Positions 1-12,269 of a DNA stretch of 12,726 nucleotides are shown piece after piece. This stretch comes from a virus (lineage: Duplodnaviria > Heunggongvirae > Uroviricota > Caudoviricetes). Where the stretch lies: the IMG/VR virus record IMGVR_UViG_3300014846_000084; one strand, written 5' to 3'. Position 1 is the stretch's first letter. Every line of letters starts with the position of its first letter. Under the pieces are notes generated by a model. It was given only the letters and a program-made list of their open reading frames with translations. It was not told where the DNA came from and did no database searches. A program made the position numbers and the translations under genes.

Positions 1-1230
1 ATGAGCAGAGCACTTAACAAACTGAGCGATACACAGCTGAGGAAAATCAACGGCACACCCGCCCAAAAAACAGCCTTTCTTAATGACGGTGGAAACCTGA
101 GCGTCAGGCATTCAACCAGCGGCCTTTTAACCTGGTATTTCACCTACAGGGCCGGAACGGGAAGGGGAGCACGACCGGAACGGATTAAGCTGGGAAATTA
201 TCCTGATCTGAGTCTGAAAGCTGCCAGGGAAAAAGCGGCACAGTGTCGCGCTTGGCTTGCTGAGGGGAAAAATCCACGTCATGAGATGAATTACACCGTA
301 CAGAAAGCGTTAAAGCCCGTAACGGTTGGCGATGCGCTTACCTACTGGCTTGAGTCTTACGTAAAGGAAAACCGCGTGGATTATGCCGCCCTGAAAAAGC
401 GCCTTAATAATCACGTAATACAGCACATTGGTGCTATGCCGCTGGATAAATGCGAGCTACGGCACTGGCTGGCCTGTTTTGACCAGGTGGCAAAGCGAAC
501 GCCTGTTACTGCCGGATTCTTGCTACAGACGTGCAAACAGGCGCTTAAGTTCTGCCGGAGGCGGCGCTATGCAATCAGCAACGTTCTTGATGATATGAGT
601 GTGGCGGACGTTGGGAAAAAACCGGATATAAGCGAGCGTGTCTTAAGCACCAAAGAACTTGGCGAATTATTGCAGGCACTGGACAAAAAAATATTTTCCC
701 CTTACTACGTCGCACTAATCCGCCTCCTGATTGTTTTTGGATGCCGGACGGTAGAACTGAGGTTATCGGAGATCAGCGAGTGGGATTTTACCGAAATGCT
801 CTGGACCGTGCCGAAAGAACACAGCAAAACGAAGGTGGCAATATTCCGGCCCATACCGGAAGCAATACTGCCGTTCGTCACGCAGCTGGTGGAGCAGAAC
901 AGGCACACGGGCTTATTGCTGGGGGAAGTGAAACAGGAAACAAGCGTGTCGCAGTACGGCAGATTAGCGCACAGGAGGCTAAAACACCCTCACTGGTCAC
1001 TGCATGACATCCGGCGCACCTTTACAACGATGCTGAACGATTTAGGCGTGGATCCTCACGTCGTGGAGCAGCTTACAGGTCATCAGATGCCAGGGATGCA
1101 ACGAGTCTATAACCATTCCCGTTATCTGGATGCGAAACGTGACGCGCTGGATATGTGGACGGAGCGGTTAGGGATACTGGCGGGAACACATGAAAACGTA
1201 ACCACATTGCCAATAGCCAGAGAAATATAA
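1..1230 (+). CDS. int: Tyrosine site-specific integrase, P4-like family (409 aa)
   Basis: Full-length ORF from the track. C-terminal catalytic motifs are readable in the translation: R in GCRTVELRL, H-x-x-R in SLHDIRRTF, Y in QRVYNHSRY. N-terminal region resembles the arm-binding domain of P4-type integrases. Upstream start context is outside the window. Confidence 0.9.
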   Translation: MSRALNKLSDTQLRKINGTPAQKTAFLNDGGNLSVRHSTSGLLTWYFTYRAGTGRGARPERIKLGNYPDLSLKAAREKAAQCRAWLAEGKNPRHEMNYTVQKALKPVTVGDALTYWLESYVKENRVDYAALKKRLNNHVIQHIGAMPLDKCELRHWLACFDQVAKRTPVTAGFLLQTCKQALKFCRRRRYAISNVLDDMSVADVGKKPDISERVLSTKELGELLQALDKKIFSPYYVALIRLLIVFGCRTVELRLSEISEWDFTEMLWTVPKEHSKTKVAIFRPIPEAILPFVTQLVEQNRHTGLLLGEVKQETSVSQYGRLAHRRLKHPHWSLHDIRRTFTTMLNDLGVDPHVVEQLTGHQMPGMQRVYNHSRYLDAKRDALDMWTERLGILAGTHENVTTLPIAREI

Positions 1231-1257
1231 TTTTTTTTGCGATTTTTCAGGATGCGG

Positions 1258-1315
1258 ACAACGTGAAACAACGAGACACAACGACGAACAACAAGGAACA
1301 AAATGGAACAACGGG
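1258..1315. repeat. Tandem array of six phased 10-bp repeats (consensus about ACGnGGAACA, ACAAC core every 10 bp) immediately 3' of int
   Basis: ACAAC at 1258, 1268, 1278, 1288, 1308 and the variant ACAAA at 1298, exactly 10 bp apart. Top strand is almost entirely A/C/G. Confidence 0.6.
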
Positions 1316-1595
1316 TTAAAAATCAGCCATCGTAATAACCATTTGATTTTTATAGGTGTACTGTTTTTTTATACACTGGCGAATCACTCTTAAAAATATG
1401 TAAAAAAGGCGTAAAAGTAAAATTTTATGCCTTTGCATCATAATGAATTAAAAGAGTTTTTATTCTCATTCCCCCTGCTTCTGTAAAACGACCGCCGCCA
1501 GTGTTTGCCATTCCACAAACACCCTGACACAATCCGACACAACCCAACCCAATAATCCACCCAATGACTCTTTAAGAAACAACAAAGGGGGAATT

Positions 1596-1784
1596 GTGTT
1601 AAGCACAGATCGCTTTATACGTGAAAAAGAATGTCAGCAACTTACAGGCCTGAGCCGCTCATGTCGGTACCGCCTGGAAAAAGCCGGACAATTCCCATCA
1701 CGGCGTAAGCTGGGCGGTCGTTCCGTTGGCTGGTCTTTATCCGAAGTTCTGGCATGGAAGGACAGCTGCGAGGCAGTTCACTAA
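1596..1784 (+). CDS. alpA: AlpA-family (Vis/excisionase-like) HTH transcriptional regulator, 62 aa, GTG start
   Basis: Translation LTGLSRSCRYRLEKAGQFP...GWSLSEVLAWK matches the AlpA/MerR-like winged HTH pattern. Strong SD (AAAGGGGGA) 5 to 8 nt upstream of the GTG at 1596. Confidence 0.85.
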   Translation: MLSTDRFIREKECQQLTGLSRSCRYRLEKAGQFPSRRKLGGRSVGWSLSEVLAWKDSCEAVH

Positions 1785-1836
1785 TCAGGCTGGCGGCACA
1801 CAGCCGCCACCCATCCACTAATACAGAGATCTAACC

Positions 1837-3039
1837 ATGAATACTGGATATTCTCCCGAACAAGGGCGGGGCTTCGTTCGTCCTGAAAAACAGAATCTGC
1901 AAAATTTTGCCGAAATTATTCCGGTTATTTCCGGCCTTACTGGCGGGAGTGAAACCAATATTGTTAACGCCAGAGCGTTGCAGATGTTTGATGATAAAAA
2001 GGGAGTAAATTTAACTTACACCCCTGACGGCAATCAGAATATGAGCATTATCTCTGAGTCAGGTTTCTACAAACTAATAAAAACAAAAAGCGCCCCGTTG
2101 CCGGAGCGCCTTTGTGAACAATTAACCTACTGCGCAAAAAATGAATCTGAGCAGTGGGATTATATCAACCATGTGGAGAAGCGCCACAATTGCCGAATAA
2201 CGGGCAAAACAAAGGCCACCCGCTACGGTGGCCCCTCGACACAAGCTACACGTTATCCCCAACGCATGAGCATTGCCAACAATGCCACATTTGCGGCTGG
2301 TGGGCAATGCAATCAGTCTGGTTCAGTTCGTTGCCATACCTGCAATGAGCGCTTTTCCCTGTACTCTTTAAGGAATTGCTCAAGGGCAAAAGCACATGGC
2401 GCGAATCTTTCTGATTCATGCTCTATCTTTCTGCGCCGTCTTTTCCGTGCCGGTGATAATGTTTTGGTCAATTCTTTATCGGTCATTGTGTTGTCCTGCA
2501 TAGCAATGCGCCGTAATACCTTACACCACGGCGCTGATGGTGATTACTCTGGTTCTTTGGTCTTGCGGCGCTGGAGTTCTTCACGTGCGACAGTGACGAG
2601 CTGCCCGATCTCCTCGGCGGCTTTGATTCCGAGTTTTTCCACCTGCGCCAGTGCATCGAGCGAAGAAACTAGGGGATTTTCTCCACTTCCTTCTGCCTGG
2701 CGCCGGGCGATCTCACCGCGTACAGCCGTAACTATAAAATTCGCTTTAGTTTCCCCTGGCTGTAGGGATGCCTCAATGCCACTCACTACTTCATGTGGAA
2801 ATCTGGCATTCAGTTGCTGTGACTTATTGTTAACAGAACTCCTGGACATGTTTGCACCTCCCATTAATAACGGGATGCAGTGTAATACAAAAGTGAATAC
2901 CAAAAAAGACTTGAAATGGTATTCACCTAAATGTAATGTGAATACCACAAGTGCTGATACATGCAATTCAGCAATTGAAACGACGAAGCCCCGCACTGTT
3001 GGAGCAGTAACGGGGCTTCTAACCAACAACGTAAACTAG
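1837..3039 (+). CDS. Hypothetical ORF with a Bro-N/KilA-N-like segment in the first ~110 aa. The 3' boundary is uncertain: the open frame runs 400 codons, but the distal two thirds look like non-coding antisense of the minus-strand regulator gene. Possible pseudogene or mis-extended ORF.
   Basis: N-terminal translation contains KGVNLTYTPDGNQNMSIISESGFYKLIKTKS, which resembles the conserved Bro-N core. From about residue 150 the composition turns S/C/R-rich and overlaps a well-supported gene on the opposite strand. Weak SD before the ATG at 1837. Confidence 0.3.
   Translation: MNTGYSPEQGRGFVRPEKQNLQNFAEIIPVISGLTGGSETNIVNARALQMFDDKKGVNLTYTPDGNQNMSIISESGFYKLIKTKSAPLPERLCEQLTYCAKNESEQWDYINHVEKRHNCRITGKTKATRYGGPSTQATRYPQRMSIANNATFAAGGQCNQSGSVRCHTCNERFSLYSLRNCSRAKAHGANLSDSCSIFLRRLFRAGDNVLVNSLSVIVLSCIAMRRNTLHHGADGDYSGSLVLRRWSSSRATVTSCPISSAALIPSFSTCASASSEETRGFSPLPSAWRRAISPRTAVTIKFALVSPGCRDASMPLTTSCGNLAFSCCDLLLTELLDMFAPPINNGMQCNTKVNTKKDLKWYSPKCNVNTTSADTCNSAIETTKPRTVGAVTGLLTNNVN
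2313..2486 (-). CDS. Possible small basic protein (57 aa, MTDKELTKTLSPARKRRRRK...), downstream of the RHH gene on the minus strand
   Basis: ORF in the track (2313..2501) trimmed to the second ATG, which has an AGGA about 8 nt upstream. Composition is protein-like but there is no recognisable family. Overlaps the open + frame of the preceding feature. Confidence 0.2.
   Translation of the reverse strand: MTDKELTKTLSPARKRRRRKIEHESERFAPCAFALEQFLKEYREKRSLQVWQRTEPD
2544..2849 (-). CDS. Ribbon-helix-helix (Arc/MetJ-like) DNA-binding regulator, about 101 aa; candidate island repressor
   Basis: Track ORF 2544..3029 trimmed to the internal ATG at 2849, which has a strong SD (GGGAGGTG) 5 nt upstream. 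N-terminal segment LNARFPHEVVSGIEASLQPGETKANFIVTAVRGEI fits an RHH beta-strand/helix pattern. Transcribed divergently from the downstream operon. Confidence 0.7.
   Translation of the reverse strand: MSRSSVNNKSQQLNARFPHEVVSGIEASLQPGETKANFIVTAVRGEIARRQAEGSGENPLVSSLDALAQVEKLGIKAAEEIGQLVTVAREELQRRKTKEPE
2893..2947. promoter_or_regulatory. Operator-like triple repeat GTGAATACCA (direct 2893-2902, inverted 2918-2927, direct 2938-2947) in the divergent intergenic region between the RHH gene and the 3048 operon
   Basis: Three exact copies of a 10-mer in alternating orientation, within about 55 bp, lying between two divergent start codons (2849 minus, 3048 plus). Confidence 0.5.
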
Positions 3040-3047
3040 GAGCCGTT

Positions 3048-3248
3048 ATGGTTGCCGTAAATCATATACCACACCTTGTACACACACAAACGGCCTTTGT
3101 GTGGCGTTTTCTGGCACTGAGTGCCGGAGAATCTCAAATCATCCACGTAACCGCCTGGACGGAACGCGAAGCGCGTAGCCGTTGCCCGTCAGGTTGTGTT
3201 GCTGTATTTGCCGCTCGTATTCGTCAGGGGAAAACCTATGCACAATAA
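3048..3248 (+). CDS. Hypothetical small protein (66 aa), first gene of a coupled operon leading to the primase
   Basis: AGGAG SD at 3038-3042, 5 nt before the ATG. Stop overlaps the start of the next ORF. Confidence 0.5.
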   Translation: MVAVNHIPHLVHTQTAFVWRFLALSAGESQIIHVTAWTEREARSRCPSGCVAVFAARIRQGKTYAQ

Positions 3249-3477
3249 AACCACACCGGACGCAGCAGCCGCCGCGCTCACTACGCTGATGCACGCGCTT
3301 ATTGATATTTCTGTTATTGCTGACAGGGCGCATAAGCACGCCACCAGTGAAACAGAATATGCCGGGGCTTTCGTTCCTCATTCGCTGGCGGTTATGCAAC
3401 TTAGTGCGGATATGGCGCTGAATGAGGCCAAAGCCATCCTGATTGCTGATTGTGAAAATGGGGGGGGTTATGCGTGA
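3238..3477 (+). CDS. Hypothetical small protein (79 aa, MHNKTTPDAAAAALTT...)
   Basis: Track ORF 3196..3477 trimmed to the ATG at 3238, which overlaps the upstream stop and has AGGGGA upstream. Alanine/helix-rich, protein-like composition. Confidence 0.5.
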   Translation: MHNKTTPDAAAAALTTLMHALIDISVIADRAHKHATSETEYAGAFVPHSLAVMQLSADMALNEAKAILIADCENGGGYA

Positions 3478-3703
3478 TGATCGTTTTAATTCCCTGAAAC
3501 AGGAATTTTCCGACGTTCCTGATGATGCGGCTGATGCGCTTTCGTCAATGCCAGAGCTTATTAGAGCGGCTTTTTTCTTACTTTCCACGAGAGAATATAA
3601 ATCAACGGGGCTTGATGTACTGAATATCGCCGCCGATTATGCGGAATATGTGGCAGAGGCGCATTACAGAAGAAAATTTCCTGAGGATGTAAGCCATGCG
3701 TGA
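3470..3703 (+). CDS. Hypothetical small acidic protein (77 aa, MRDDRFNSLKQEF...)
   Basis: Track ORF 3443..3703 trimmed to the ATG at 3470, which overlaps the upstream stop in the motif ATGCGTGA. G-rich SD upstream. Confidence 0.55.
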   Translation: MRDDRFNSLKQEFSDVPDDAADALSSMPELIRAAFFLLSTREYKSTGLDVLNIAADYAEYVAEAHYRRKFPEDVSHA

Positions 3704-3929
3704 TATTTACCACGAAACAATAGACCGCGCATTTCTTGCACTTTCTCACAGTGAAAACATGCTGGAAATATTGCGCATATGGCTTGAAACACTTGGCGAC
3801 AATGAACGCGACAAACAAAAATCAAGAATTGCCACGGCATTAATAACGCTTCTTGATCCTGTAATAATGGAACTGCAAGAAATAGATCTATTGCACGACA
3901 GATATAAAGAACAGCACACCGGAGAATAA
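3696..3929 (+). CDS. Hypothetical small protein (77 aa, MRDIYHETIDRAF...)
   Basis: ATG at 3696 overlaps the upstream stop in the same ATGCGTGA arrangement. GAGGA SD at about 3682. Confidence 0.55.
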   Translation: MRDIYHETIDRAFLALSHSENMLEILRIWLETLGDNERDKQKSRIATALITLLDPVIMELQEIDLLHDRYKEQHTGE

Positions 3930-3934
3930 AAATA

Positions 3935-4234
3935 ATGAAACTTAAATATTCTGGCTTAACTGCCAGTGGCAACACTCACCCTAAATTTACGCGCGGTGAT
4001 ATTTACCGCGACCAGTACGGCGGCACGGTAATGATTAAGGGCGTGGAGGAACGTCGCGTAACTTACCGCCGTGAAGGCTACGAATATGATTGCGTGATGC
4101 CTGTTTATCAGTTCGACCGTGATTTTTCTCTTGTGCAGGCCGTACCGCGTAACGTGCCCACCAGCAGGGAGAAAGCACGCGCCAATATTCAGAAGATGAA
4201 AACCATGATTAACGGATTCAGGGGTAAAAAATGA
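3935..4234 (+). CDS. Hypothetical protein (99 aa), translationally coupled to the primase gene (ATGA overlap)
   Basis: Track ORF with GGAGA SD upstream. Its stop overlaps the primase ATG at 4231. Confidence 0.6.
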   Translation: MKLKYSGLTASGNTHPKFTRGDIYRDQYGGTVMIKGVEERRVTYRREGYEYDCVMPVYQFDRDFSLVQAVPRNVPTSREKARANIQKMKTMINGFRGKK

Positions 4235-5985
4235 AACTGGCACCGAACGTAAAACAGCAGTCACGCGGCATAAAACACAAAGAAACAGAAGTCATTATTT
4301 TTGCGGGTAGTGATGCCTGGTCACACGCAAAACAATGGCAGGAACATGACGCGCGTATGGCCGGAGATAATGAGCCTCCTGTGTGGCTTGGGGAGCAGCA
4401 GTTATCCGAACTGGATAAGCTGCAAATTGTGCCGGAAGGCAGAAAATGCGTACGAATATTCAGGGCCGGACATCTTGCGCCAGTAATGATAAAGGCGATT
4501 GGTCAGAAGCTGGCGGCGGCTGGCGTACAGGATGCAAATTTTTATCCTGAGGGTATGCACGGCCAGGAGGTGCAGAACTGGCGCGAATATCTGGCCCGTG
4601 AGCGACAGAATCTTTCTGATGGTCTGGTCATTGAGCTTCCGGTAAAGCAAAAGGCGCAACTTTCTCAGATGGCGGACAGTGAGCGCGCGCAGCTGCTTTC
4701 CGGGCGCTTTGATGGCGTTTGCGTGCATCCTGAAAGTGAAATCGTCCACGTCTGGCGCGGCGGGGGATGGTGTCCGGTCAGCACAATGGAACTGAGCCGC
4801 GAAATGGTGGCGATCTATTCAGAGCACAGGGCCACTTTCAGCAAGCGCGTAATCAATAACGCCGTGGAAGCGTTAAAAGTTATTGCCGAACCAATGGGCG
4901 AGCCGTCCGGTGATTTACTGCCGTTCGCCAATGGTGCGCTTGACCTGAAAACGGGGGAATTTTACCCGCACACGCCGGAGAACTGGATCACCACGCACAA
5001 CGGCATTGAGTACACGCCACCAGCACCAGGGGAGAACATCCGCGATAACGCGCCAAACTTTCATAAATGGCTTGAGCACGCAGCCGGAAAAGACCCGCGC
5101 AAGATGATGCGTATATGTGCCGCGCTGTACATGATTATGGCGAACCGGTACGACTGGCAGATGTTTATTGAGGCCACCGGAGATGGCGGGAGCGGTAAAA
5201 GTACATTCACGCACATAGCCAGCCTTCTGGCAGGGAAACAGAACACGGTAAGCGCTGAAATGACATCGCTTGATGATGCTGGTGGACGTGCGCAGGTTGT
5301 CGGGAGTCGTCTTATCGTCCTGGCTGACCAGCCGAAATATACAGGCGAAGGAACGGGCATCAAGAAAATCACGGGCGGTGACCCTGTGGAAATTAACCCG
5401 AAATACGAAAAGCGTTTCACGGCTGTAATCAGAGCGGTGGTGCTGGCGACCAACAATAACCCGATGATATTCACCGAACGGGCCGGAGGTGTGGCACGTC
5501 GTCGCGTGATTTTCCGTTTCGACAATATCGTCAGTGAGGCCGAAAAAGACAGGGAGCTACCGGAAAAGATTGCGGCTGAAATCCCTGTCATTATCCGCCG
5601 ATTGCTGGCGAACTTTACCGACCCTGAGAAGGCACGGGCTTTACTACTGGAACAGCGTGACGGTGATGAAGCTCTGGCAATAAAGCAACAGACGGATCCG
5701 GTTATTGAGTTTTGCCAGTTCCTGAATTTTCTGGAGGAAGCACGCGGCCTGATGATGGGCGGCGGTGGCGATTCAGTGAAGTACACGACCAGAAACAGCC
5801 TTTACCGCGTCTATCTGGCGTTTATGGCGTACGCAGGCAGGAGCAAACCGCTAAACGTAAATGACTTTGGCAAGGCTATGAAGCCAGCCGCGAAAGTTTA
5901 CGGACATGAATATATTACGCGGAAAGTTAAGGGAGTAACGCAGACTAACGCAATAACAACAGACGATTGCGACGCGTTTTTATAA
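4231..5985 (+). CDS. Phage/plasmid primase-helicase, P4 alpha-like (D5_N plus P-loop NTPase C-terminal region), 584 aa; probable replication initiator of the island
   Basis: Walker A reads EATGDGGSGKST and a Walker-B-like RLIVLADQ follows. Overall size and layout match P4-family primase C-terminal domain proteins. The iteron array starts directly after the stop. Confidence 0.88.
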   Translation: MKLAPNVKQQSRGIKHKETEVIIFAGSDAWSHAKQWQEHDARMAGDNEPPVWLGEQQLSELDKLQIVPEGRKCVRIFRAGHLAPVMIKAIGQKLAAAGVQDANFYPEGMHGQEVQNWREYLARERQNLSDGLVIELPVKQKAQLSQMADSERAQLLSGRFDGVCVHPESEIVHVWRGGGWCPVSTMELSREMVAIYSEHRATFSKRVINNAVEALKVIAEPMGEPSGDLLPFANGALDLKTGEFYPHTPENWITTHNGIEYTPPAPGENIRDNAPNFHKWLEHAAGKDPRKMMRICAALYMIMANRYDWQMFIEATGDGGSGKSTFTHIASLLAGKQNTVSAEMTSLDDAGGRAQVVGSRLIVLADQPKYTGEGTGIKKITGGDPVEINPKYEKRFTAVIRAVVLATNNNPMIFTERAGGVARRRVIFRFDNIVSEAEKDRELPEKIAAEIPVIIRRLLANFTDPEKARALLLEQRDGDEALAIKQQTDPVIEFCQFLNFLEEARGLMMGGGGDSVKYTTRNSLYRVYLAFMAYAGRSKPLNVNDFGKAMKPAAKVYGHEYITRKVKGVTQTNAITTDDCDAFL

Positions 5986-5997
5986 TTTGTTGCAATG

Positions 5998-6225
5998 GCT
6001 GTCTACCCTGTCTACCTGAGTAAAGAAAAATACATTTAATTCAGTACATTAACTTAGGTAGACAGCCTTTTTTCACTGTCTACCTACTATCTACCCTCTC
6101 TACCTGATTTTACCTGAATCAGACAGGGAGGTAGATACGGGGTAGATAGTGGATAAAAGCACTCTACCCTACTGAAAGCCGCGCCATTACTGGCATGGTG
6201 GCCAGTAAGGTAGATAAGGTAGACA
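5998..6225. repeat. Iteron array, candidate origin of replication: about 12 copies of GGTAGA(C/T)A / T(G)TCTACC in both orientations flanking an AT-rich spacer
   Basis: CTGTCTACC at 5999-6007, 6008-6016 and 6076-6084; GGTAGACAG at 6057-6065; TCTACC at 6090 and 6099; GGTAGATA at 6130, 6141 and 6209; GGTAGACA at 6218. AT-rich stretch at 6018-6056. Confidence 0.6.
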
Positions 6226-6273
6226 AGGGGAGGCACAACTCAAAACTTTTTAAACGAGGGGGTAAAAATAAAA

Positions 6274-6525
6274 ATGCGCACATCAGGAAAACTTAATAAT
6301 CAGAAGAAGCAGCATAACCGCGCCATTGACCTTACAGAGCACTGGCTGAGAGTGGCGATAAAAATCATCGACCGCAACACGGGGGAAGGATACGCGAAAG
6401 CACATCCCGACCTGATAAGCGCATTCATGACCACGGCGGCGGCAAACTTTGCCACGCTGACAGAACGGGAGATTGCCGAAGCGGAACAGGTAACAACCAT
6501 CAACGTTAAAAGCGCTGGAGAATAA
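6274..6525 (+). CDS. Hypothetical protein (83 aa)
   Basis: Track ORF. GAGGGGG SD at 6256-6262. Followed by an intrinsic terminator. Confidence 0.55.
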   Translation: MRTSGKLNNQKKQHNRAIDLTEHWLRVAIKIIDRNTGEGYAKAHPDLISAFMTTAAANFATLTEREIAEAEQVTTINVKSAGE

Positions 6526-6543
6526 CCGAAGAAGTGAGCACAT

Positions 6544-6568
6544 AGCCGGAGCAATCCGGCTTTTTTTC
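6544..6568 (+). terminator. Rho-independent terminator (AGCCGGA-gcaa-TCCGGCT followed by a T7 run)
   Basis: 7-bp GC-rich stem with a 4-nt loop and a run of seven T immediately after, 20 nt past the stop of the 6274 ORF. Confidence 0.6.
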
Positions 6569-6655
6569 GATCTCATATATCTTAAAAGATGGTTAATTAA
6601 TGATAATCTATCGAAAATACTGGTTATGTAATGATAAGTATCAGGAGAAAACAAA

Positions 6656-6850
6656 GTGGAAGAGATAAAGCAAAGCGCTACCGTGATGATTGATCATGAA
6701 ATCCTTAACGAGCTTAAAAAGTTGCAGTTCGATATTGTGCGCCGGATGAATGAATCAGGTATCTACGGCAGGGCGGCAACACCAACAATAGGGCATCTTG
6801 CGCGCGTACTGTTACGCGAACGCCTGGGCATTGCAACAAGTGAGGCGTAA
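6656..6850 (+). CDS. Hypothetical small protein (64 aa), GTG start; first gene of the putative late/packaging operon
   Basis: Track ORF. CAGGAG SD at about 6642. Preceded by an AT-rich promoter-like stretch at 6570-6650. Confidence 0.5.
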   Translation: MEEIKQSATVMIDHEILNELKKLQFDIVRRMNESGIYGRAATPTIGHLARVLLRERLGIATSEA

Positions 6851-6853
6851 ACA

Positions 6854-7015
6854 ATGGCTATCACAGAACGCGAGGCAAGCATCATTAAGGCCATTGGCGA
6901 GGAAACAAGAGACACCATAGCGCCATTGATGGAAAAGATCGCAGAGCTTGAGACACGAATAAACAAGCTGAGTAATGAAGTTGAAGGCCTGATCTCGTTA
7001 CTCGGTGAGCAATGA
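6854..7015 (+). CDS. Small predicted coiled-coil protein (53 aa, MAITEREASIIKAIGEETRDTIAPLMEKIAELETRINKLSNEVEGLISLLGEQ); absent from the ORF track, which appears to omit ORFs under 60 aa
   Basis: Translated by hand. ATG lies 4 nt after the upstream stop, with a GAGG about 9 nt upstream. Heptad-like charged/hydrophobic pattern. Confidence 0.4.
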   Translation: MAITEREASIIKAIGEETRDTIAPLMEKIAELETRINKLSNEVEGLISLLGEQ

Positions 7016-7143
7016 CATGGGGGGGAGTGTTCCGGCCGGAAAGTCGATCTCCCTGGACACCGCCCCCCGTCTCATTCGTAGAAAATTTTGCTTTTCAAAA
7101 AAGTTACACGAAAAGTTACACCCCCTCAAAACGAGGTTTTTGC

Positions 7144-7632
7144 ATGGCATTAACGACCAAAAAAAAGCGGTTTGCTGATGCGTTATCAAGGGGCGCAAAT
7201 CCCACGGAAGCCGCTATACATGCGGGATACAGCGAAAAGACCGCAAGGGTTAAAGGCTGGCAGCTATCCAACGATCCTGAGGTGAAAAAGTATCTTAAGG
7301 CTGTAACTCCTGATGTAACTTTTCAGGTTACAAAACCGAAAAAAGTTACAAAGAAAGTTACCGAAAAAGTTACACCGGAACGGGCATCAATTAACACCAT
7401 TGAGATGATGGATAACGGCCTACCCGACCCCATCAAAGCAATGGGCAGGATACTGATTGACAACATGGACACAGATCCAAAACTGGCTTTAGATGCCGCG
7501 TTTAAGCTGGCCCAGTTCACCCACCGCAAGATCGGCAGCATTGGGAAAAAAGAGGTTAAAAAACTCAATGCCGCTAGTGTCTCCTCAAATCGGTTCCCCA
7601 TCCCTAAGCCACCAACAGGCTTAAAACACTGA
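7144..7632 (+). CDS. terS: Terminase small subunit (TerS, Terminase_2-like), 162 aa
   Basis: Track ORF 7012..7632 trimmed to the internal ATG at 7144, which has a GAGG SD. N-terminus FADALSRGANPTEAAIHAGYSEKTARVKGWQLSNDPEV matches the conserved TerS HTH signature (AGYS..TA). The upstream 44 codons of the track ORF are GC-rich, structured, non-coding-looking sequence. Confidence 0.8.
   Translation: MALTTKKKRFADALSRGANPTEAAIHAGYSEKTARVKGWQLSNDPEVKKYLKAVTPDVTFQVTKPKKVTKKVTEKVTPERASINTIEMMDNGLPDPIKAMGRILIDNMDTDPKLALDAAFKLAQFTHRKIGSIGKKEVKKLNAASVSSNRFPIPKPPTGLKH
7303..7375. repeat. Cluster of six GTTAC/GTAAC pentamer-containing repeats spaced about 12 bp apart inside terS (encoding the repetitive KVT linker); candidate pac/TerS recognition site
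   Basis: GTAAC at 7303 and 7315; GTTAC at 7328, 7345, 7357 and 7369. Two further AAAAGTTACAC copies lie just upstream of the terS start (GTTACAC at 7103-7109 and 7115-7121). Confidence 0.45.
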
Positions 7633-7643
7633 GGTAGCGAACT

Positions 7644-7805
7644 ATGAGCGAATACATCACAGACCCTATTGATGTACTCACGGAAATCATGAACGACAAG
7701 CAGCAGTCGACCGAAATACGGTTACAGGCCGCCGCTATTCTGATGCCATATTTTCACGAAACACTAAACCCGTGCTTCCAAGAGGAGGAAGAAGATGATC
7801 TGTAA
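7644..7805 (+). CDS. Small acidic protein (53 aa, MSEYITDPIDVLTEIMNDKQQSTEIRLQAAAILMPYFHETLNPCFQEEEEDDL); absent from the ORF track
   Basis: Translated by hand. ATG at 7644 lies 11 nt after the terS stop, with a GAGG about 9 nt upstream. Its 3' end overlaps the start of the capsid-like gene by 11 nt. Confidence 0.4.
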   Translation: MSEYITDPIDVLTEIMNDKQQSTEIRLQAAAILMPYFHETLNPCFQEEEEDDL

Positions 7806-8718
7806 AAACATGAAAGGCGTGTCAGCAGTTCGCGCCGCCAGCGTGCTGGCATCGTGTAAATTTAGCCATGCTGACGCTATAGAGATGACGAAAAGAAATG
7901 ATCCGGCAGTATCGTTATTTCTTGAAAAATCCGTAGTAGCAGGAATGAACACGGATAACATGCCGTCGCTGGTGGCAGAGCCGATAGTAAGAGAGCTTGG
8001 CGAGTATATTTTTTCGCAGTCTGTACCAGGCAAGCTAATCAGCAGCGCGCTAAATCTTCCGTTTGGCGCAAAATTGCAGTCAATATCAGGCAAGGGTAGT
8101 AAATGGCTTAAAGAGGCCGAAGAAATCCCAGTCAAAGAGGGAGAAGTAAACGAAAGCGCGCTAAAACTGTGCAAACTCGGCGCTATTGTGATGCTGAATA
8201 ACGAGCTAATCAAATTTAGCACCCCTGGTACCAATTCAGCGATCAGAGACTTGATCACATCGGAATCGGTGAAAGAAATAGATAAAAAATTTCTTTCCAG
8301 TGACCAGGAGGTGGCTGGCGTATCCCCTGAGGGCGTGCTTAATGGTGCTGATGAGGCCGAAAACTTCATAGAGCTTTTCAAAAAGCACATAGCGAACGGT
8401 AACACGCTTGCCACGTCGTCGCTAATCTTGCCCGTAGAAAACGCCTTACAGCTTACTGATGCTGAGTTCTGGCAGATAGAGCTTTTGAGAATACCGGTAA
8501 TTGTGAGCGAACAGGCGGATCTCATGATGCTGATAGACGCTAAAAAGCTGATTATTAACGTTGAAGCCACGGTTATAACCCCAACTGATGAGGCGGTAAT
8601 AAAAACCGAATCAGGGACGGTTAGCCTTTTCCAGAATGACGCTACAGCGTTCATGGCAATCACCTATTGCGGATGGCAAAAACTCGATAAGGCCGTCACC
8701 GTTCTGGCGAAAAGCTGA
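7795..8718 (+). CDS. HK97-fold major capsid protein homolog (307 aa), putative; possibly a capsid-redirecting MCP paralog given the absence of other head genes
   Basis: AGGAGG SD 7 nt upstream of the ATG. The overall pattern, especially the C-terminal region (LRIPVIVSEQADLMMLIDAKKLIINVEATVITPT...SLFQNDATAFMAITYCGWQ), resembles HK97-type major capsid proteins. Assignment is by eye only. Confidence 0.55.
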   Translation: MICKNMKGVSAVRAASVLASCKFSHADAIEMTKRNDPAVSLFLEKSVVAGMNTDNMPSLVAEPIVRELGEYIFSQSVPGKLISSALNLPFGAKLQSISGKGSKWLKEAEEIPVKEGEVNESALKLCKLGAIVMLNNELIKFSTPGTNSAIRDLITSESVKEIDKKFLSSDQEVAGVSPEGVLNGADEAENFIELFKKHIANGNTLATSSLILPVENALQLTDAEFWQIELLRIPVIVSEQADLMMLIDAKKLIINVEATVITPTDEAVIKTESGTVSLFQNDATAFMAITYCGWQKLDKAVTVLAKS

Positions 8719-8732
8719 TTTTTCCGGCATCA

Positions 8733-8762
8733 ATCCCGATATGGTGATCCCCATATCGGGAT
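8733..8762. other. Perfect 12-bp inverted repeat hairpin (ATCCCGATATGG-tgatcc-CCATATCGGGAT) 15 nt after the capsid-like gene stop; possible weak terminator, RNA element or protein-binding site
   Basis: Arms at 8733-8744 and 8751-8762 are exact reverse complements. Followed by AT-rich sequence but not a clean T-run. Confidence 0.4.
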
Positions 8763-8805
8763 AATTACGAAATTTTCGCAGTTTAATAGCTGACCAGGTG
8801 GAGAA

Positions 8806-9087
8806 ATGACAGAAGCCGAAATACTGGGATTAATCCGCCGCGTTGCCGGAATCAGCAAGCAGGCCGACGAACAGGCCACGCAGCCGGACAGCGTGACCGC
8901 CGAAAATTATGTGCGTGTTGTTGCTGAGGTGATGCGCCGTGATGGTATCCAGCTTAATGATGTGGATATGCGCAACATACGGATCCGCGTTCTTGAAATG
9001 CTGGCCTACAATCGCCGCGTTGAACTGTATCGGGAGAAAGAAAAAATTACGTACCACTGGAAGAAGCCGGAGCGGTTACGGCGTTAA
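8806..9087 (+). CDS. Hypothetical protein (93 aa), last gene of the island
   Basis: Track ORF. AGGTGGAG SD at 8796-8803. Balanced, protein-like composition. Confidence 0.55.
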   Translation: MTEAEILGLIRRVAGISKQADEQATQPDSVTAENYVRVVAEVMRRDGIQLNDVDMRNIRIRVLEMLAYNRRVELYREKEKITYHWKKPERLRR

Positions 9088-9093
9088 CGAGTA

Positions 9094-9138
9094 GTGACAT
9101 ACCGTGACGGAGAGTGACAACCAGTGACACAACGTGAC
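9094..9138. repeat. Tandem array of five phased 10-bp repeats (GTGAC every 10 bp; consensus nnnGTGACAn) at the island terminus
   Basis: GTGAC at 9094, 9104, 9114, 9124 and 9134. Contains the octamer GACACAAC (9126-9133), which also occurs at 1275-1282 and 1536-1543. Confidence 0.6.
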
Positions 9139-9390
9139 AAAAAGACGGTATTTAAACAGGGGGAGTATTTAATACCCCTCCCACCAGCCTGATTAACATT
9201 TAACCGGAAAAAAAATCCGGTACCATGATGGCAGACGCTAGGGCAATCATTGCTGAAATTGCACACTTTTTAAGCAAATCATTTTAGTTATACGTTTGGT
9301 TATACGATTTAAAAGTTGAATCAAGCATATTTATTAAAATCATGTAGTTACACGCTAAATTAAACTACTCTCGTGCCAAAAATCCCAAGA

Positions 9391-9419
9391 AAAAACCAAC
9401 CCTTACGGTTGGTTTTTTT
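9391..9419. terminator. Bidirectional intrinsic terminator (AACCAACC-cttac-GGTTGGTT flanked by an A-run and a T-run); serves the convergent autotransporter gene and probably the island's rightward transcripts
   Basis: Perfect 8-bp stem (9394-9401 / 9407-9414) with a 5-nt loop, a T7 run on the + strand and an A-run upstream that gives a T-run on the minus strand. Lies about 60 nt past the autotransporter stop. Confidence 0.7.
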
Positions 9420-9480
9420 ATATCTGCAATTAATTCGATAAACAGACCGTGACACATCACAGCCTGTTTATTTTCTGTTA

Positions 9481-12072
9481 TCAGAACGTCCAGACCACAC
9501 CCGCCTGAGTATTCCACGGCGATTCTACCCCTGCGCCATTGCCATAGCTGACTGACAAATGACCGCTTAACGTCGGGGTAAACGATGACCTTATACCAGC
9601 CTGATAAACGCCACTGGTTCCAGCCACATCATTATTAAATTTGCCATCGTCATTAACTTTCACCTGGTTAGAATCGGCGTATTCCTGACGCACGGCCGCT
9701 TTCAGCCAGGGTTCCAGCGTCGTACCGTTTTGCAGGTCCATGTGATAGCTTACCGCCGTTCCCGCTTCAGCGCGTAATATCCGGGTATTTCCCACATCCG
9801 CGCGCATGCCGTTTGATAACGTGTAGTCCTGACCATCTGTGGTAAAGCCGGTAAAGGCCAGATAGGGTCTAACACTCCACAATCCGTCAACCCAACGGAA
9901 CCCGCTCTCAACATGAGCACCCGCGCCGTTACTATTGTAATCGCCAAACGCTGTTGCCCCATTACTCATCTTGCCATGGATGGTGTTGGCAAAACGGTCA
10001 ACTTTCACCACCCCATCAACATAGGCACCGTTCTGATGCTCCCAACCGGCATAAGCCCCCAGGGTATAGCTATCGATATTACCTTTGCCGCCGCGATCAA
10101 AACCAATATCAGAATGAGAGTAACCAAAGATCAAGCCGCGAATTGTACTGCTTTCTTCACGGGAGAAACGGCTATCGATACCGAGCGTCAGGCCCGTCAA
10201 TGTTTGCTCAAAACCAGCTCCCGCATCAGTGGTCACGTTGTTGCGGGTGTTAATTGCCGAACTCCACATCGCCGTATCGTAACTAACGCCTTTTACGCTA
10301 CCAAGACGCTCACGCACGGTGTCCAGTTCTGCATCAAATACCAGCGGTTGTGCGGCCGCCATATTCAGCACATCAGTGGTTGAAGGGGTAATTTGCGCGC
10401 GATTCTCTGCCAGACTCCAGCTATGGTTGCCATTATCCAGCAAGGTATATTCATACGTACCGATATCAACAACGCCTCCGGCATTGCCCAACGTAAATGC
10501 AGCATCACCGCCGCCCGTTGTTACCAGTGTAAGGCTATCTCCTGCTGCCGGGCTGGCACCGGTGTCCGTCACGAATATTTTGAAATCACCTGTTGCCTGA
10601 CCGGTGACGTTGAGCTGATCGCTCTGATGATTAGCCATATCGGTACGCATATAAAAATTGCCGTTTCCCGACAGGGTATTGGTGGTCAACGTAATGAAAT
10701 TTTCCGCACTTGCCGTCACTGATGAACGAGTCACTGGCTCATCCATCATAATCACATTTGCGTCAGACATCGCAAGGTTGGCTAAGTTGAGGAGGGTGTT
10801 TTGGTTCGTCGTAGTGATATCGGCAATGATGGTCCATACGCTATTTTCGAGCGAAACGTCCGCTTTGCTGGTATCCACGGCACCATTCGTTCTAAAAGAA
10901 GCGCCCTCAGAAACCACTACCTTACCCACCAACATTGCGGGTGCATAATTTATTTGCGGCTTCATGACCTCAAGAATGCCATCATTCCCTCTGACTGAAA
11001 CGTTAACCATTGTGCCAGCCCAGACGTTAGCGCGGCCATTGTTGATAACCATATTTTCAGAGATGGCTTTTGAGGAATACGTGATACTTCCATTCTGATA
11101 TGATCGACCGAGATCATATACCGCATTTGCCTGCACTTTCGTACCAGTATCCTTTCCCAGCGATTGCATAGTGGCATGCTTATCAAGGATAGTATCAATG
11201 GCCTGCGTGTCCTCCATAACAATGAGCCCGGAACCATCATCCAGTTCATAATTTTTTGACACACCATCTTTTATACTAAATTGGCCTTTACTGTTTGGAC
11301 CACTCACTTCCAGCGCATTCGTTGAGACAATTAATTTTCCGCCTGCTTTTTTATCAACGCCAGTTACAGTCCCGCCATCCATAACCTCCAGTAAGCCGCC
11401 ACTATCTACAGTGGTATTATAAGCGAAGTCATTTTCTTCAACTCGCAAACTTCCGCCGTTTTCCAACAACATATTATTAGCAATACCATTCTTGATATCG
11501 AACTGACCGAGACGGTTTGTTCCGAATACCTCCATGGCCCGCGTGGTTGTTTTAATAGCACCGCCTGCTTTCTGATCTACCGCAAATGCAAATCCCCCCT
11601 CTTTAACCTCCAGTAGTCCTCCCTTTTCGATAGCGACAAAGACGGCCCCCCCATCTTTTTCAACGATTAAGCGCCCGCCTTTAATCGTGGTATCATTCGC
11701 TGCGCCATAAACCTGTAGCACACCATTATTGAGCGTAGTCTGGTTTGCCGCGCCACCCATTTGAACAATTTGATAACCGTCATTTAATACTGAGTATTCT
11801 GCGGCGCCATTCATTTCAATGTACTGATACCCTCCGTTAATTTCAGTATTATTACTTACACCAAATTCTTTTATATGCTGTTCTCCGCCAGGATTGATTT
11901 TCGTATTATTGGCGGTCCCATAAACCAGCTGGATATCTTTTTCCAGGACAACACCATCAACTGTCTCACCATACTCAACAGTTGATGCCAATGCTATGGG
12001 TGAATATAACGCTGTAGCCACCAGAACAGATATTGCGGAACGACAAAGAGAAACAGAACCAGATTGATGCAT
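9481..12072 (-). CDS. AIDA-I-type (type Va) autotransporter adhesin, 863 aa, with signal peptide, repeat-rich passenger and C-terminal beta-barrel translocator
   Basis: N-terminal signal-peptide-like segment (LCRSAISVLVATALYSPIALAST). Passenger region has recurring glycine-rich repeats (e.g. NTKINPGGEQ, NTEINGGYQY, IVEKDGGAVF, LEVKEGGFAF). C-terminal about 280 aa has alternating aromatic/hydrophobic beta-strand pattern and ends ...AGVVWTF, typical of autotransporter beta-domains. Confidence 0.88.
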   Translation of the reverse strand: MHQSGSVSLCRSAISVLVATALYSPIALASTVEYGETVDGVVLEKDIQLVYGTANNTKINPGGEQHIKEFGVSNNTEINGGYQYIEMNGAAEYSVLNDGYQIVQMGGAANQTTLNNGVLQVYGAANDTTIKGGRLIVEKDGGAVFVAIEKGGLLEVKEGGFAFAVDQKAGGAIKTTTRAMEVFGTNRLGQFDIKNGIANNMLLENGGSLRVEENDFAYNTTVDSGGLLEVMDGGTVTGVDKKAGGKLIVSTNALEVSGPNSKGQFSIKDGVSKNYELDDGSGLIVMEDTQAIDTILDKHATMQSLGKDTGTKVQANAVYDLGRSYQNGSITYSSKAISENMVINNGRANVWAGTMVNVSVRGNDGILEVMKPQINYAPAMLVGKVVVSEGASFRTNGAVDTSKADVSLENSVWTIIADITTTNQNTLLNLANLAMSDANVIMMDEPVTRSSVTASAENFITLTTNTLSGNGNFYMRTDMANHQSDQLNVTGQATGDFKIFVTDTGASPAAGDSLTLVTTGGGDAAFTLGNAGGVVDIGTYEYTLLDNGNHSWSLAENRAQITPSTTDVLNMAAAQPLVFDAELDTVRERLGSVKGVSYDTAMWSSAINTRNNVTTDAGAGFEQTLTGLTLGIDSRFSREESSTIRGLIFGYSHSDIGFDRGGKGNIDSYTLGAYAGWEHQNGAYVDGVVKVDRFANTIHGKMSNGATAFGDYNSNGAGAHVESGFRWVDGLWSVRPYLAFTGFTTDGQDYTLSNGMRADVGNTRILRAEAGTAVSYHMDLQNGTTLEPWLKAAVRQEYADSNQVKVNDDGKFNNDVAGTSGVYQAGIRSSFTPTLSGHLSVSYGNGAGVESPWNTQAGVVWTF

Positions 12073-12269
12073 TGAGCTTTCATCCTATGAAATTAATTGC
12101 TGTTAAAAGCATTGGGTACAGAAAATACCCATAGCTCCATACCCGGAGTCAGTTTTTAAAAACTGTTTAAAGAAATGCACAAGTATTGTGATTGATTTTT
12201 TAGTTGTTTTTCTTGATGAGAAGCTGATGCAAAATTCCGTCTTTATAATGAAAATGATGCCAAAGCGAA

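What the first reader, a model, noticed from the sequence alone, without database searches (positions are those of the whole stretch)
1..9390. Compact satellite-like island: int, alpA, divergent regulator, P4-type primase with ori, TerS and a lone capsid homolog
The gene set has replication and packaging-hijack functions (integrase, AlpA, primase with iterons, TerS, one HK97-like capsid homolog) but no portal, protease, large terminase, tail or lysis genes. That is the architecture of a helper-dependent phage satellite (P4-like or PICI-like), not a prophage. About half of its roughly 18 ORFs have no recognisable function, and satellites are known carriers of anti-phage and helper-interference functions.
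Basis: partly seen in the sequence, partly recalled or inferred. Interest (0 to 1): 0.6.

Follow-up and report, generated by a model that had tools for sequence, protein, structure and literature searches.

The report
Recombinant E. coli phage satellite (PICI)
This is a roughly 9.4 kb phage-inducible chromosomal island (a phage satellite) of a family already catalogued in E. coli; its packaging genes and a newly noticed cos-like site point to Shiga-toxin-type HK97-like phages as helpers, and its integrase does not match the chromosomal junction beside it.

Summary
Bases 1 to about 9385 are a Gram-negative PICI with int, alpA, a P4-alpha-type primase-helicase, an iteron ori, a TerS homolog and one HK97-fold capsid homolog. 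There is no portal, protease, TerL, tail or lysis gene.

The family is already known. Bases 1-2294 differ from EcCICFT073 at 2 positions. Bases 2295-9510 are 99.8% identical to yejM/proL-site PICIs listed in Fillol-Salom 2018, such as EcCI11128. The lone capsid gene is a known trait of these islands, with no known function.

Three things are new here:
- **Recombinant layout.** The integrase is 100% identical to the EcCICFT073 integrase and 24% identical to the proL-type integrase. The right junction, however, is the proL tRNA-Pro attR, so integrase and att do not match.
- **Helper candidates.** TerS (47% identity) and the capsid homolog (23%) both find their nearest phage relatives in HNH/TerS/TerL/protease-MCP head modules of Sawaravirus-type Stx phages.
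- **A cos-like element.** A 67-nt noncoding stretch upstream of terS (7019-7085) matches the HNH-terS intergenic region of those phages. Unrelated helper-embedded satellites show the same pattern.

No known defence genes were found. Novelty and interest are modest.

The parts
1..1230 (+). Tyrosine integrase (409 aa), EcCICFT073 type
   Evidence: Pfam Arm-DNA-bind_3 and Phage_integrase. It is 100% aa identical to the CFT073 integrase and 24% identical to the Int413 of proL-site islands.
1596..1784 (+). AlpA, the activator/excisionase-family master regulator of Gram-negative PICIs
   Evidence: PF05930 at E=3e-18 and phrog_2790. Its role was shown for EcCICFT073 in PMC6092414.
2086..2113 (-). Strong intrinsic terminator ending the short leftward unit
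   Evidence: 12-bp stem with 7 GC pairs, then a T run.
2295..2515 (.). Crossover zone shared by the two parental island types
   Evidence: The window differs from CFT073 at 2 of the first 2294 bases, and from L010 at 1 base in 2295-3300.
2313..2501 (-). Small leftward gene of unknown function
   Evidence: phrog_21027 at E=1.6e-15. Annotated as hypothetical in CFT073.
2544..3029 (-).
   Evidence: NF041551 at E=3e-16 and phrog_6522 at E=4e-32. There is no evidence of regulatory function.
3048..3248 (+). Icd-like small protein
   Evidence: NF033153 at E=6e-18 and phrog_1743.
3238..3703 (+). Gene of unknown function split by a 1-bp insertion at 3460
   Evidence: The two halves match phrog_2512 positions 1-76 and 72-154. 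The gene is an intact 154 aa in L009.
3696..3929 (+). 77-aa protein of unknown function
   Evidence: phrog_2196 at E=7e-42.
3935..4234 (+). DUF4222 protein
   Evidence: PF13973 at E=3e-24.
4231..5985 (+). Primase-helicase (pri-rep) with a P4-alpha-type C-terminal origin-binding domain
   Evidence: D5_N, DUF5906 and Pox_D5; phrog_864 at E=3.5e-172. PDB 7ola gives E=9e-15 and 1ka8 gives E=1e-6.
6000..6225 (.). Replication origin: nine 8-bp iterons (TRTCTACC) in both orientations
   Evidence: 9 observed against 0.38 expected, all inside 226 bp.
6274..6525 (+). 83-aa conserved protein, followed by a terminator at 6544-6561
   Evidence: 96% aa identical to the CFT073 homolog; phrog_1231.
6656..7015 (+). 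Two small ORFs (64 aa and 53 aa) of unknown function, conserved in the TerS-type late module
   Evidence: Present in EcCI11128 and in L003-L012. No confident family match: 6656-6850 had none in Pfam, PHROGs, NCBIfam or PADLOC; 6854-7015 gave only a sub-threshold Pfam TSC22 hit (17.2 bits against a 30-bit cut-off) and a marginal phrog_1397 hit, E=8e-4.
7019..7085 (+). Candidate cos site (helper-type cosN-like core at 7061-7077)
   Evidence: 76% identity over 67 nt (E=1e-6) to the HNH-terS intergenic region of Stx2a_1447, collinear with terS. The core motif occurs once per TerS-bearing locus and nowhere else in 454 kb. L022/L023 give an independent replicate.
7098..7118 (+). Two AAAGTTACAC repeats at the cosB position; they differ from the helper's GTTAAC repeats
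   Evidence: Inferred to be TerS-binding sites.
7144..7632 (+). Small terminase homolog (162 aa)
   Evidence: phrog_641 over its full length at E=1.3e-43; Terminase_2 N-terminal domain. 47% identical (E=9e-42) to the TerS of Stx2a_1447.
7644..7805 (+). 53-aa protein resembling the TerS core (residues about 82-137)
   Evidence: phrog_641 at E=4e-7. BLASTP E=3e-6 to the helper TerS of L022. The alignment to the window TerS scored 40 against a shuffle mean of 23.3, sd 3.9, with 0 of 500 shuffles reaching it. Conserved next to terS in distant satellites.
7795..8718 (+). HK97-fold major-capsid-protein homolog (307 aa) without a protease domain
   Evidence: AlphaFold pLDDT 92.8; Foldseek top hits are phage capsid proteins. 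23% identical (E=1e-18) to residues 291-629 of the helper-type protease-MCP fusion.
8806..9087 (+). 93-aa conserved terminal gene of unknown function
   Evidence: 92% aa identical to the last EcCICFT073 gene; phrog_1561.
9094..9138 (+). Five GTGAC repeats at an exact 10-bp phase (possible recombination-directionality or arm sites)
   Evidence: Function inferred only.
9282..9306 (+). Two (T)TAGTTATACG-type repeats, the 'att core' of yejM-site PICIs in the 2018 catalogue
   Evidence: Four copies lie upstream of int413 in L007.
9366..9385 (+). attR: a remnant of the 3' end of tRNA-Pro(GGG) proL; the island ends here
   Evidence: Comparison with the empty K-12 site shows 100% identity from 9376 onward.

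Best explanation
The feature is a Gram-negative phage-inducible chromosomal island (PICI), a satellite that relies on a helper phage for particles and lysis.

**What is shown by homology to EcCICFT073 and by sequence**
- AlpA is the activator that switches the island on when a helper phage enters lytic growth.
- The integrase, with AlpA, excises the island.
- The primase-helicase replicates the island from the iteron origin immediately downstream of its gene.

**What is inferred here**
- The late module is a kit for hijacking HK97-like, HNH-dependent cos phages of the Sawaravirus / Stx-converting / PPompW type.
- The island carries a helper-like cos core directly upstream of its own terS. The flanking repeats at the cosB position differ from the helper's.
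- The satellite TerS (47% identical to the helper TerS) would therefore bind satellite DNA and recruit the helper's TerL and HNH to cut and package it.
- The 53-aa TerS-core look-alike and the protease-less capsid homolog are candidate interference or capsid-remodelling factors. The capsid homolog is analogous to Ccm of SaPIbov5.

**This particular copy**
- It is a recent recombinant. Its int-alpA arm comes from an EcCICFT073-type island, and the rest comes from an island integrated at tRNA-Pro proL next to yejO.
- The integrase does not match the right-hand att site.
- The window is therefore most likely one half of a cointegrate or tandem structure, or else an assembly join across the 220-bp shared segment.
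For: - **Identity with known PICIs.** Bases 1-2574 are 99.5% identical to EcCICFT073. Bases 2295-9510 are 99.8% identical to proL-site islands, and 2295-12269 are 99.4% identical with their yejO flank. EcCI11128 has the same 64aa/53aa/TerS/53aa/MCP module.
- **Replication.** Iterons and the P4-alpha origin-binding domain.
- **Helper inference.** TerS and the capsid homolog both hit the same phage group. That group's head module is HNH, TerS (Terminase_2), TerL and an S78 protease-MCP fusion.
- **cos.** The 67-nt match is collinear with terS. The core motif is specific to TerS-bearing loci. The record of phage Lys8385Vzw is linearised inside that core. In L022/L023, two embedded satellites each carry an 81-83% identical copy of their own helper's HNH-terS intergenic sequence, with E=1e-15 to 2e-18.
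- **Absences.** No RppA and no lambda-type cosN.
- **Capsid fold.**
- **Mismatch.** The integrase is 24% identical to Int413, the CFT-type att sequences are absent, and a proL attR is present.
Against: - No experiment links this island subtype to any helper. The two TerS-encoding E. coli PICIs that were tested (IHE3034 and 18098) were not mobilised by their resident prophages (PMC6092414).
- The cos site of the candidate helpers has not been mapped in any paper I could find. The shared noncoding block could instead be a regulatory element.
- The capsid homologs of EcCICFT073 had no phenotype when deleted, so a Ccm-like role is only an analogy.
- The similarity of the 53-aa ORF to TerS is seen only at profile level or is weak.
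- The left junction is not in the window, so the cointegrate and chimera alternatives cannot be separated.
Confidence: 0.6

Rival explanations
1. The int-alpA arm is joined to the rest by an assembly error. The strain would carry two separate PICIs, one at roxA/phoQ and one at proL/yejO, and the assembler crossed between them in the 220-bp near-identical segment.
For: - The crossover falls exactly in the only long stretch shared by the two island types.
- Many genomes carry two or more such islands (up to 9 places per genome).
- None of 5,426 complete E. coli genomes has this junction in one piece.
- The primase protein of the window is not on record in the large assembly index.
- A simple chromosomal crossover between the two co-oriented loci would delete 1.1 Mb.
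Against: - Homologous recombination over 220 bp is also biologically easy.
- Tandem PICIs and integrase/late-module shuffling occur naturally in this family (L039, L032, L034).
- Nothing inside the window, such as Ns or a coverage signal, can be inspected.
Confidence: 0.35
2. The island packages by a headful (pac) mechanism, like SaPI1. Its TerS would recognise a pac site, and the block shared with phages upstream of terS would be a late-promoter or regulatory element rather than cos.
For: - TerS belongs to Terminase_2, a family that includes many pac phages and SaPI TerS.
- The literature treats TerS-encoding PICIs as pac-type by default.
Against: - The nearest phage relatives have an HNH gene immediately upstream of terS and an HK97-type TerL.
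- From established knowledge (recalled, not checked here), that arrangement is the hallmark of HNH-dependent cos packaging in HK97 and in the staphylococcal phage phi12.
- The conserved core is G+C-rich, sits at the position where one phage record is linearised, and is copied in satellites of a distant helper while the flanking sequence is not.
Confidence: 0.2
3. It is a decayed prophage remnant or a P4-like satellite rather than a PICI.
For: - It shares an AlpA, an Icd-like gene and a P4-alpha-type primase with P4.
- Some databases annotate such islands as defective prophages.
Against: - No ORF received a Psu, Sid, Delta or Epsilon annotation in the PHROGs, Pfam or NCBIfam scans.
- Gene order and boundaries are conserved in at least 170 complete genomes.
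- The left arm is the experimentally validated EcCICFT073.
- There are no pseudogenised phage structural genes.
Confidence: 0.04

Closest known systems
EcCICFT073 (E. coli PICI; Fillol-Salom 2018, 2019)
   Same: - Bases 1-2294 differ at only 2 positions, and the integrase is 100% identical.
- Same order: int, alpA, small genes, DUF4222, pri-rep, ori.
- The 83-aa protein is 96% aa identical and the terminal 93-aa protein is 92% aa identical.
   Different: - The late module is replaced. The window has no SSB, PerC, lambda-E-type capsid, decoration protein, RppA or lambda-type cosN.
- Instead it has a TerS homolog, a TerS-core mini-protein, an HK97-type capsid homolog and a different cos-like site.
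- The right junction is proL/yejO, not ycfD(roxA)-phoQ.
yejM/proL-site PICIs of the 2018 catalogue (EcCI11128, EcCI11368.1, EcCIED1a.1, SdCI1012, SbCISb277)
   Same: - Same attR at tRNA-Pro, same TAGTTATACG repeats and same yejO flank.
- EcCI11128 has the identical late-module gene order, 97% identical over 6352-8787.
   Different: - Those islands carry a 413-aa integrase only 24% identical to the window's, and a different AlpA.
- EcCI11128 uses a RepA-type helicase instead of the D5-type primase.
SaPIbov5 (cos-type SaPI with Ccm)
   Same: - A satellite of HNH-dependent cos phages that carries a helper-like cos site.
- It has a lone capsid homolog about 24% identical to the helper capsid protein (PMC8569155). 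Here the figure is 23%.
   Different: - SaPIbov5, as I recall, has no TerS of its own.
- Ccm's role, forming pentamers that force small isometric capsids, is demonstrated. Here nothing has been tested.
- The capsid homologs of EcCICFT073 had no phenotype.
Helper-embedded PICIs (PMC10111431)
   Same: The distant relatives L022/L023 have the same TerS-like / 53-aa / short-MCP trio and sit inside late genes of an HNH-TerS-TerL-S78-MCP prophage.
   Different: The window's island lies at a chromosomal tRNA site, not inside a prophage.

Membership tests
Gram-negative PICI (Fillol-Salom 2018) | Size of about 8-15 kb with int at the left end followed by alpA, mostly rightward transcription | tested here: met
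   About 9.4 kb from the int ATG to attR. int is at 1-1230 and alpA at 1596-1784. All but two small genes are on the + strand.
Gram-negative PICI (Fillol-Salom 2018) | Primase/replicase gene with the origin of replication immediately downstream | tested here: met
   pri-rep at 4231-5985. Nine iterons at 6000-6225 against 0.38 expected.
Gram-negative PICI (Fillol-Salom 2018) | No phage structural or lysis module beyond a few packaging or capsid genes | tested here: met
   Only TerS and one capsid homolog. No portal, protease, TerL, tail or lysis hits.
Gram-negative PICI (Fillol-Salom 2018) | A specific att site with matching integrase and flanking direct repeats | tested here: inconclusive
   The right end is the catalogued yejM/proL attR. 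The integrase is of the ycfD-phoQ type, its att sequences are absent from the window, and the left end is not in the window.
Gram-negative PICI (Fillol-Salom 2018) | Induction by a helper phage, helper-dependent high-frequency transfer, and interference with the helper | not testable with these tools
   These were shown experimentally for EcCICFT073 only. Candidate helpers are inferred.
P4-like satellites | Core genes psu, delta, sid and epsilon alongside int, alpA and alpha | tested here: not met
   No ORF received a Psu, Sid, Delta or Epsilon annotation in Pfam, PHROGs or NCBIfam. Only the alpha-like primase, AlpA and an Icd-like gene are shared.
Capsid-forming PICI (cf-PICI) | A complete capsid and packaging module (MCP, portal, protease, head-tail adaptors, TerS and TerL) | tested here: not met
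   Only TerS and a protease-less MCP homolog are present.
Rpp-type cos PICIs (Fillol-Salom 2019) | An Rpp protein plus lambda-type cosN | tested here: not met
   No BLASTP similarity to RppA. The only match to lambda cosN is at chance level, with 2 mismatches, inside the primase gene.
Ccm-type capsid redirection (SaPIbov5) | A satellite-encoded HK97-fold homolog of the helper capsid protein that is incorporated into, and shrinks, helper capsids | tested here: inconclusive
   The fold and the helper homology are met. Incorporation and size change cannot be tested here.

The most novel reading that the evidence does not exclude
The late module shared by this island and its relatives would be a so far undescribed kit for hijacking HNH-dependent, HK97-like Stx-converting and related prophages. 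Its parts would be:
- a copy of the helper's cos cleavage core, joined to satellite-specific TerS-binding repeats;
- a diverged TerS that redirects the helper's TerL and HNH to satellite DNA;
- a 53-aa TerS-core mimic that interferes with helper TerS assembly;
- a protease-less capsid homolog that acts like Ccm.

If this is right, it would be the first PICI type tied to Stx-phage helpers, and it would give a function to the unexplained capsid genes of Gram-negative PICIs.
Probability: 0.3. Interest if true: 0.6.

Novelty: new member of a known kind. Interest (0 to 1): 0.33.

Why it matters
PICIs move virulence and defence genes and suppress their helper phages. The TerS-plus-capsid subtype occurs in at least 170 of 5,426 complete E. 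coli genomes, and several of the closest matches are O157:H7, O111 and O39 strains. No helper or packaging mechanism has been reported for it in the literature searched here.

The sequence evidence gives a concrete and cheap hypothesis to test: the helpers are Sawaravirus-type Stx/PPompW prophages, the cos site is at 7019-7118, and the satellite TerS is the specificity factor. If that is correct, these islands would modulate the production and spread of Shiga-toxin phages.

The integrase/att mismatch is also a small worked example of how PICI modules recombine. Alternatively, it shows how assemblies can mis-join co-resident islands.

Tried and rejected
- **Lambda-type cos packaging, as in EcCICFT073.** The only cosN match has 2 mismatches, is at chance level and lies inside the primase gene. 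There is no RppA homolog.
- **Anti-phage cargo.** Ten unknown ORFs were scanned against PADLOC with no hits.
- **Finding the source genome or the same hybrid junction.**
  - The exact-protein look-up of the primase was not on record.
  - A 57-nt junction pattern had 0 hits in genome contigs.
  - It had 7 metagenome hits, all CFT-type only.
  - A megablast of 900-3600 against 5,426 complete genomes reached at best 90% coverage, in 3 pieces.
- **The yejO-IS2 junction.** It identified strain N18-04097, which has an empty proL site, so it only shows that the right flank is normal chromosome.
- **The 400-aa + strand ORF at 1837-3039.** Rejected as a gene. It spans the crossover and overlaps PHROG-supported minus-strand genes that end in a strong terminator. 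Only residues 49-84 weakly resemble Ant/BRO proteins.
- **The 206-aa version of TerS starting at 7012.** Rejected. Its N-terminal extension covers the cos-like noncoding block, and relatives are annotated from 7144.
- **Direct BLASTP of the 53-aa ORF against the window TerS.** It gave nothing. The similarity appears only with profiles, with a Smith-Waterman shuffle test and against another helper TerS.
- **Literature search for the cos core sequence.** Nothing was found.
Full report
**Observation**

The window has an integrase at 1-1230 and an AlpA gene at 1596-1784. A short leftward unit follows, made of a 62-aa gene and a YlcI/YnfO-family gene, ending in a strong terminator at 2113-2086. Next come a run of small rightward genes: an Icd-like gene, a frameshift-split gene, a 77-aa gene and a DUF4222 gene. 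After these lie a D5/P4-alpha-type primase-helicase (4231-5985), three small ORFs, a small terminase homolog (7144-7632), a 53-aa ORF, a 307-aa capsid homolog (7795-8718) and a conserved 93-aa gene.

Nine exact copies of TRTCTACC lie in both orientations between 6000 and 6225, directly after the primase gene. Chance predicts 0.38 copies in the whole window. The primase C-terminus matches the origin-binding domain of P4 alpha, PDB 1ka8.

The TerS call is solid: phrog_641 matches over its full length with E=1e-43. The capsid call was weak by Pfam (28 bits). It is confirmed by an AlphaFold model (pLDDT 92.8, pTM 0.88) whose top Foldseek hits are all HK97-fold capsid proteins, including the SaPI1 capsid (built of phage 80alpha coat protein, as I recall) and the SaPIbov5/Ccm procapsid. 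No portal, protease, TerL, tail or lysis gene is present. The 'divergent regulator' has no evidence of being a regulator, and TerS starts at 7144, not 7012.

**What it is**

Megablast against 5,426 complete E. coli genomes shows that the element belongs to the Gram-negative PICI family. Bases 1-2574 are 99.5% identical to EcCICFT073, the experimentally characterised island between roxA (ycfD) and phoQ in strain CFT073. There are only 2 differences in the first 2294 bases, and the integrase is 100% identical.

From 2295 onward the window matches a different island. Bases 2295-9510 are 99.8% identical to L010, and 2295-12269 are 99.4% identical to L007 and L009. Those islands sit between tRNA-Pro(GGG) proL and yejO, and the L007 and L009 matches include the chromosomal flank. 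That site and its att repeats are listed in Table S1 of Fillol-Salom 2018 as 'yejM-luxR/aidA' PICIs: EcCI11128, EcCI11368.1, EcCIED1a.1, EcCIATCC25922, SdCI1012 and SbCISb277. EcCI11128 has the same 64aa/53aa/TerS/53aa/capsid late module.

A later paper states that a lone major-capsid gene is present in 21 of 29 reference Gram-negative PICIs and is not needed for transfer (PMC10111431). P4-like membership fails because there is no psu, sid or delta. cf-PICI membership fails because there is no portal, protease or TerL.

**The integrase/att mismatch**

Comparison with the empty K-12 site puts the right end of the island at a remnant of the tRNA-Pro 3' end at about 9366-9385. Identity to K-12 is 100% from 9376. 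The TAGTTATACG repeats at 9282-9306 are those of the proL-type islands.

Those islands carry a 413-aa integrase that is only 24% identical to the window's integrase. The att sequences of the CFT-type island are absent from the window. These are the 31-bp repeat found 57 bp upstream of int and again downstream of the last gene, and the published GGACATATTT core.

The switch between parents falls in a 220-bp segment (2295-2515) that both island types share. The two chromosomal sites are co-oriented and 1.1 Mb apart, so a simple crossover between them would be a lethal deletion. Strain N18-04097 has the same IS2 insertion between yejO and narP, an empty proL site and normal gene order, so the right flank is ordinary chromosome.

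The remaining explanations are these:
- A circular EcCICFT073-type island recombined into a resident proL island, giving a cointegrate.
- The chromosome in the source strain is rearranged.
- The assembly joined two separate islands across the shared repeat.

Tandem Int413 islands (L039) occur naturally. So do islands that pair an int409-family integrase with this late module (L032, L034). No complete genome, species-representative genome or metagenome contig reproduces this exact junction. The window starts at the int ATG, so this cannot be settled here.

**How it probably works**

The early steps rest on experiments with EcCICFT073 (PMC6092414). AlpA is an activator induced by the helper phage and is required for transfer. 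Deleting int in that island abolished the excised circular form, and deleting pri-rep reduced transfer to near zero.

The late module differs from EcCICFT073. There is no RppA and no lambda-type cosN. Instead, TerS and the capsid homolog both find their nearest phage relatives in one group: Stx1a/Stx2a/Stx2c-converting phages of the genus Sawaravirus, and PPompW prophages. TerS is 47% identical (E=9e-42). The capsid homolog is 23% identical (E=1e-18) to residues 291-629 of a 645-aa S78-protease/MCP fusion. The head module of those phages reads HNH endonuclease, TerS, TerL (HK97-type ATPase and nuclease domains), protease-MCP fusion, portal. From my own knowledge of HK97 and phi12, which I did not check in a paper here, an HNH gene next to terS marks HNH-dependent cos packaging, with cos lying between the two genes.

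**A candidate cos site**

The noncoding 67 nt at 7019-7085, just upstream of the island's terS, is 76% identical (E=1e-6) to the HNH-terS intergenic region of those phages and collinear with it. It includes the core GGACACCGCCCCCC(C/G)TCTCA. The GenBank record of phage Lys8385Vzw is linearised inside this core, which may mean that physical ends were observed there.

Downstream of the core, the phages carry GTTAAC-type repeats, while the island carries two AAAGTTACAC repeats. A regular expression for the core matches once, on the + strand about 80 bp upstream of terS, in every locus with a TerS of this family. That covers eleven satellite relatives and three helper-type phage regions. It matches nowhere else in 454 kb of fetched DNA.

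An independent replicate comes from a distant relative of the capsid homolog (46% identity). It lies in two satellites embedded in the late genes of one HNH-TerS-TerL-S78-MCP prophage (L022/L023). Each of those satellites carries, upstream of its terS homolog, a 75-94-nt copy of that prophage's own HNH-terS intergenic sequence, at 81-83% identity and E=1e-15 to 2e-18. Again the flanks differ.

This is the same logic as in EcCICFT073: a shared cosN with a private cosB. Here, however, the specificity factor would be a full TerS paralog rather than Rpp. That last step is inference.

**The two remaining late genes**

The 53-aa ORF is conserved next to terS in both lineages. It resembles the central helical core of TerS: phrog_641 at E=4e-7, and BLASTP E=3e-6 to the L022 helper TerS. 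A role as a decoy for helper TerS assembly is speculation.

The capsid homolog keeps a complete HK97 fold with an N-terminal helical region of about 85 residues, but it lacks the protease domain of the helper protein. Its 23% identity to the helper capsid protein is like the 24% between Ccm and the phi12 capsid protein (PMC8569155). A Ccm-like role is plausible but untested, and deleting the unrelated capsid and decoration homologs of EcCICFT073 gave no phenotype.

**Cargo**

None of ten ORFs of unknown function matches a PADLOC defence model. The PerC and SSB genes of EcCICFT073 are absent.

**Verdict**

The finding is real and the satellite interpretation is right, but the family is already described. 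What this analysis adds:
- The copy is recombinant, with a non-cognate integrase.
- A specific candidate helper lineage.
- A candidate cos site replicated in a distant satellite-helper pair.
- A conserved TerS-fragment gene.

These are testable leads, not demonstrations. Interest is modest.

Noticed in passing
window 12270-12726: IS2 (IS3 family; orfA from 12316) is inserted between yejO and narP. Strain N18-04097 has the same insertion but an empty proL site.
   Followed up: yes
window 9481-12072 (minus strand): The autotransporter gene yejO is intact here (863 aa). It is a pseudogene in K-12 (IS5 insertion), ZH48, F8704-2 and O111 11128.
   Followed up: partly
window 3238-3703: One extra G at 3460 splits a 154-aa gene (phrog_2512; intact in L009) into two overlapping ORFs. 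L010 has the same frameshift, so it is inherited and not an error private to this window.
   Followed up: yes
window 9094-9138: Five GTGAC repeats at an exact 10-bp spacing lie directly after the last island gene. They are conserved in proL-type islands and absent from the EcCICFT073 right arm. They may be binding sites for an excision or recombination protein.
   Followed up: partly
window 1255-1320: About six phased (A/G)AACAAC-like repeats, roughly 10 bp apart, lie just downstream of int. They may be AlpA or Int binding sites.
   Followed up: no
window 6575-6636: A tandem pair of 31-nt AT-rich repeats (74% identical) lies upstream of the 64-aa gene, after the terminator at 6544-6561. This could be a regulatory region of the late module.
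   Followed up: no
window 1837-3039 (+ strand): A 400-aa ORF spans the recombination crossover and overlaps supported minus-strand genes. Only residues 49-84 weakly resemble Ant/BRO proteins. It is probably a decayed 'Bro zone' gene fused to a spurious reading frame. Gene callers do call its 277-aa equivalent in L007, L009 and L010.
   Followed up: partly
L039 1-8050: Two Int413-type PICIs lie in tandem at the proL site. The first island's right arm and att remnant (about 4073) are followed at once by arm repeats and a second int413.
   Followed up: partly
L032 and L034: These islands pair integrases 91% and 77% aa identical to the window's integrase with the same TerS-capsid late module (96-97% nt identity). 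Integrase and late-module shuffling is therefore common in this family.
   Followed up: partly
L022 7048-9339 and L023 6908-9310: The two helper-embedded satellites each encode a 763- or 800-aa protein just upstream of the cos/terS region. The 763-aa protein has no Pfam domain, and none is on record for the 800-aa one. The window has no counterpart, so this may be cargo.
   Followed up: no
phage records ON170149.1, ON170171.1 and ON170322.1: Unannotated 'Ralstonia phage' records of only 12.9-13.4 kb encode a relative of the capsid homolog (25% identity). They may be satellites deposited as phages.
   Followed up: no
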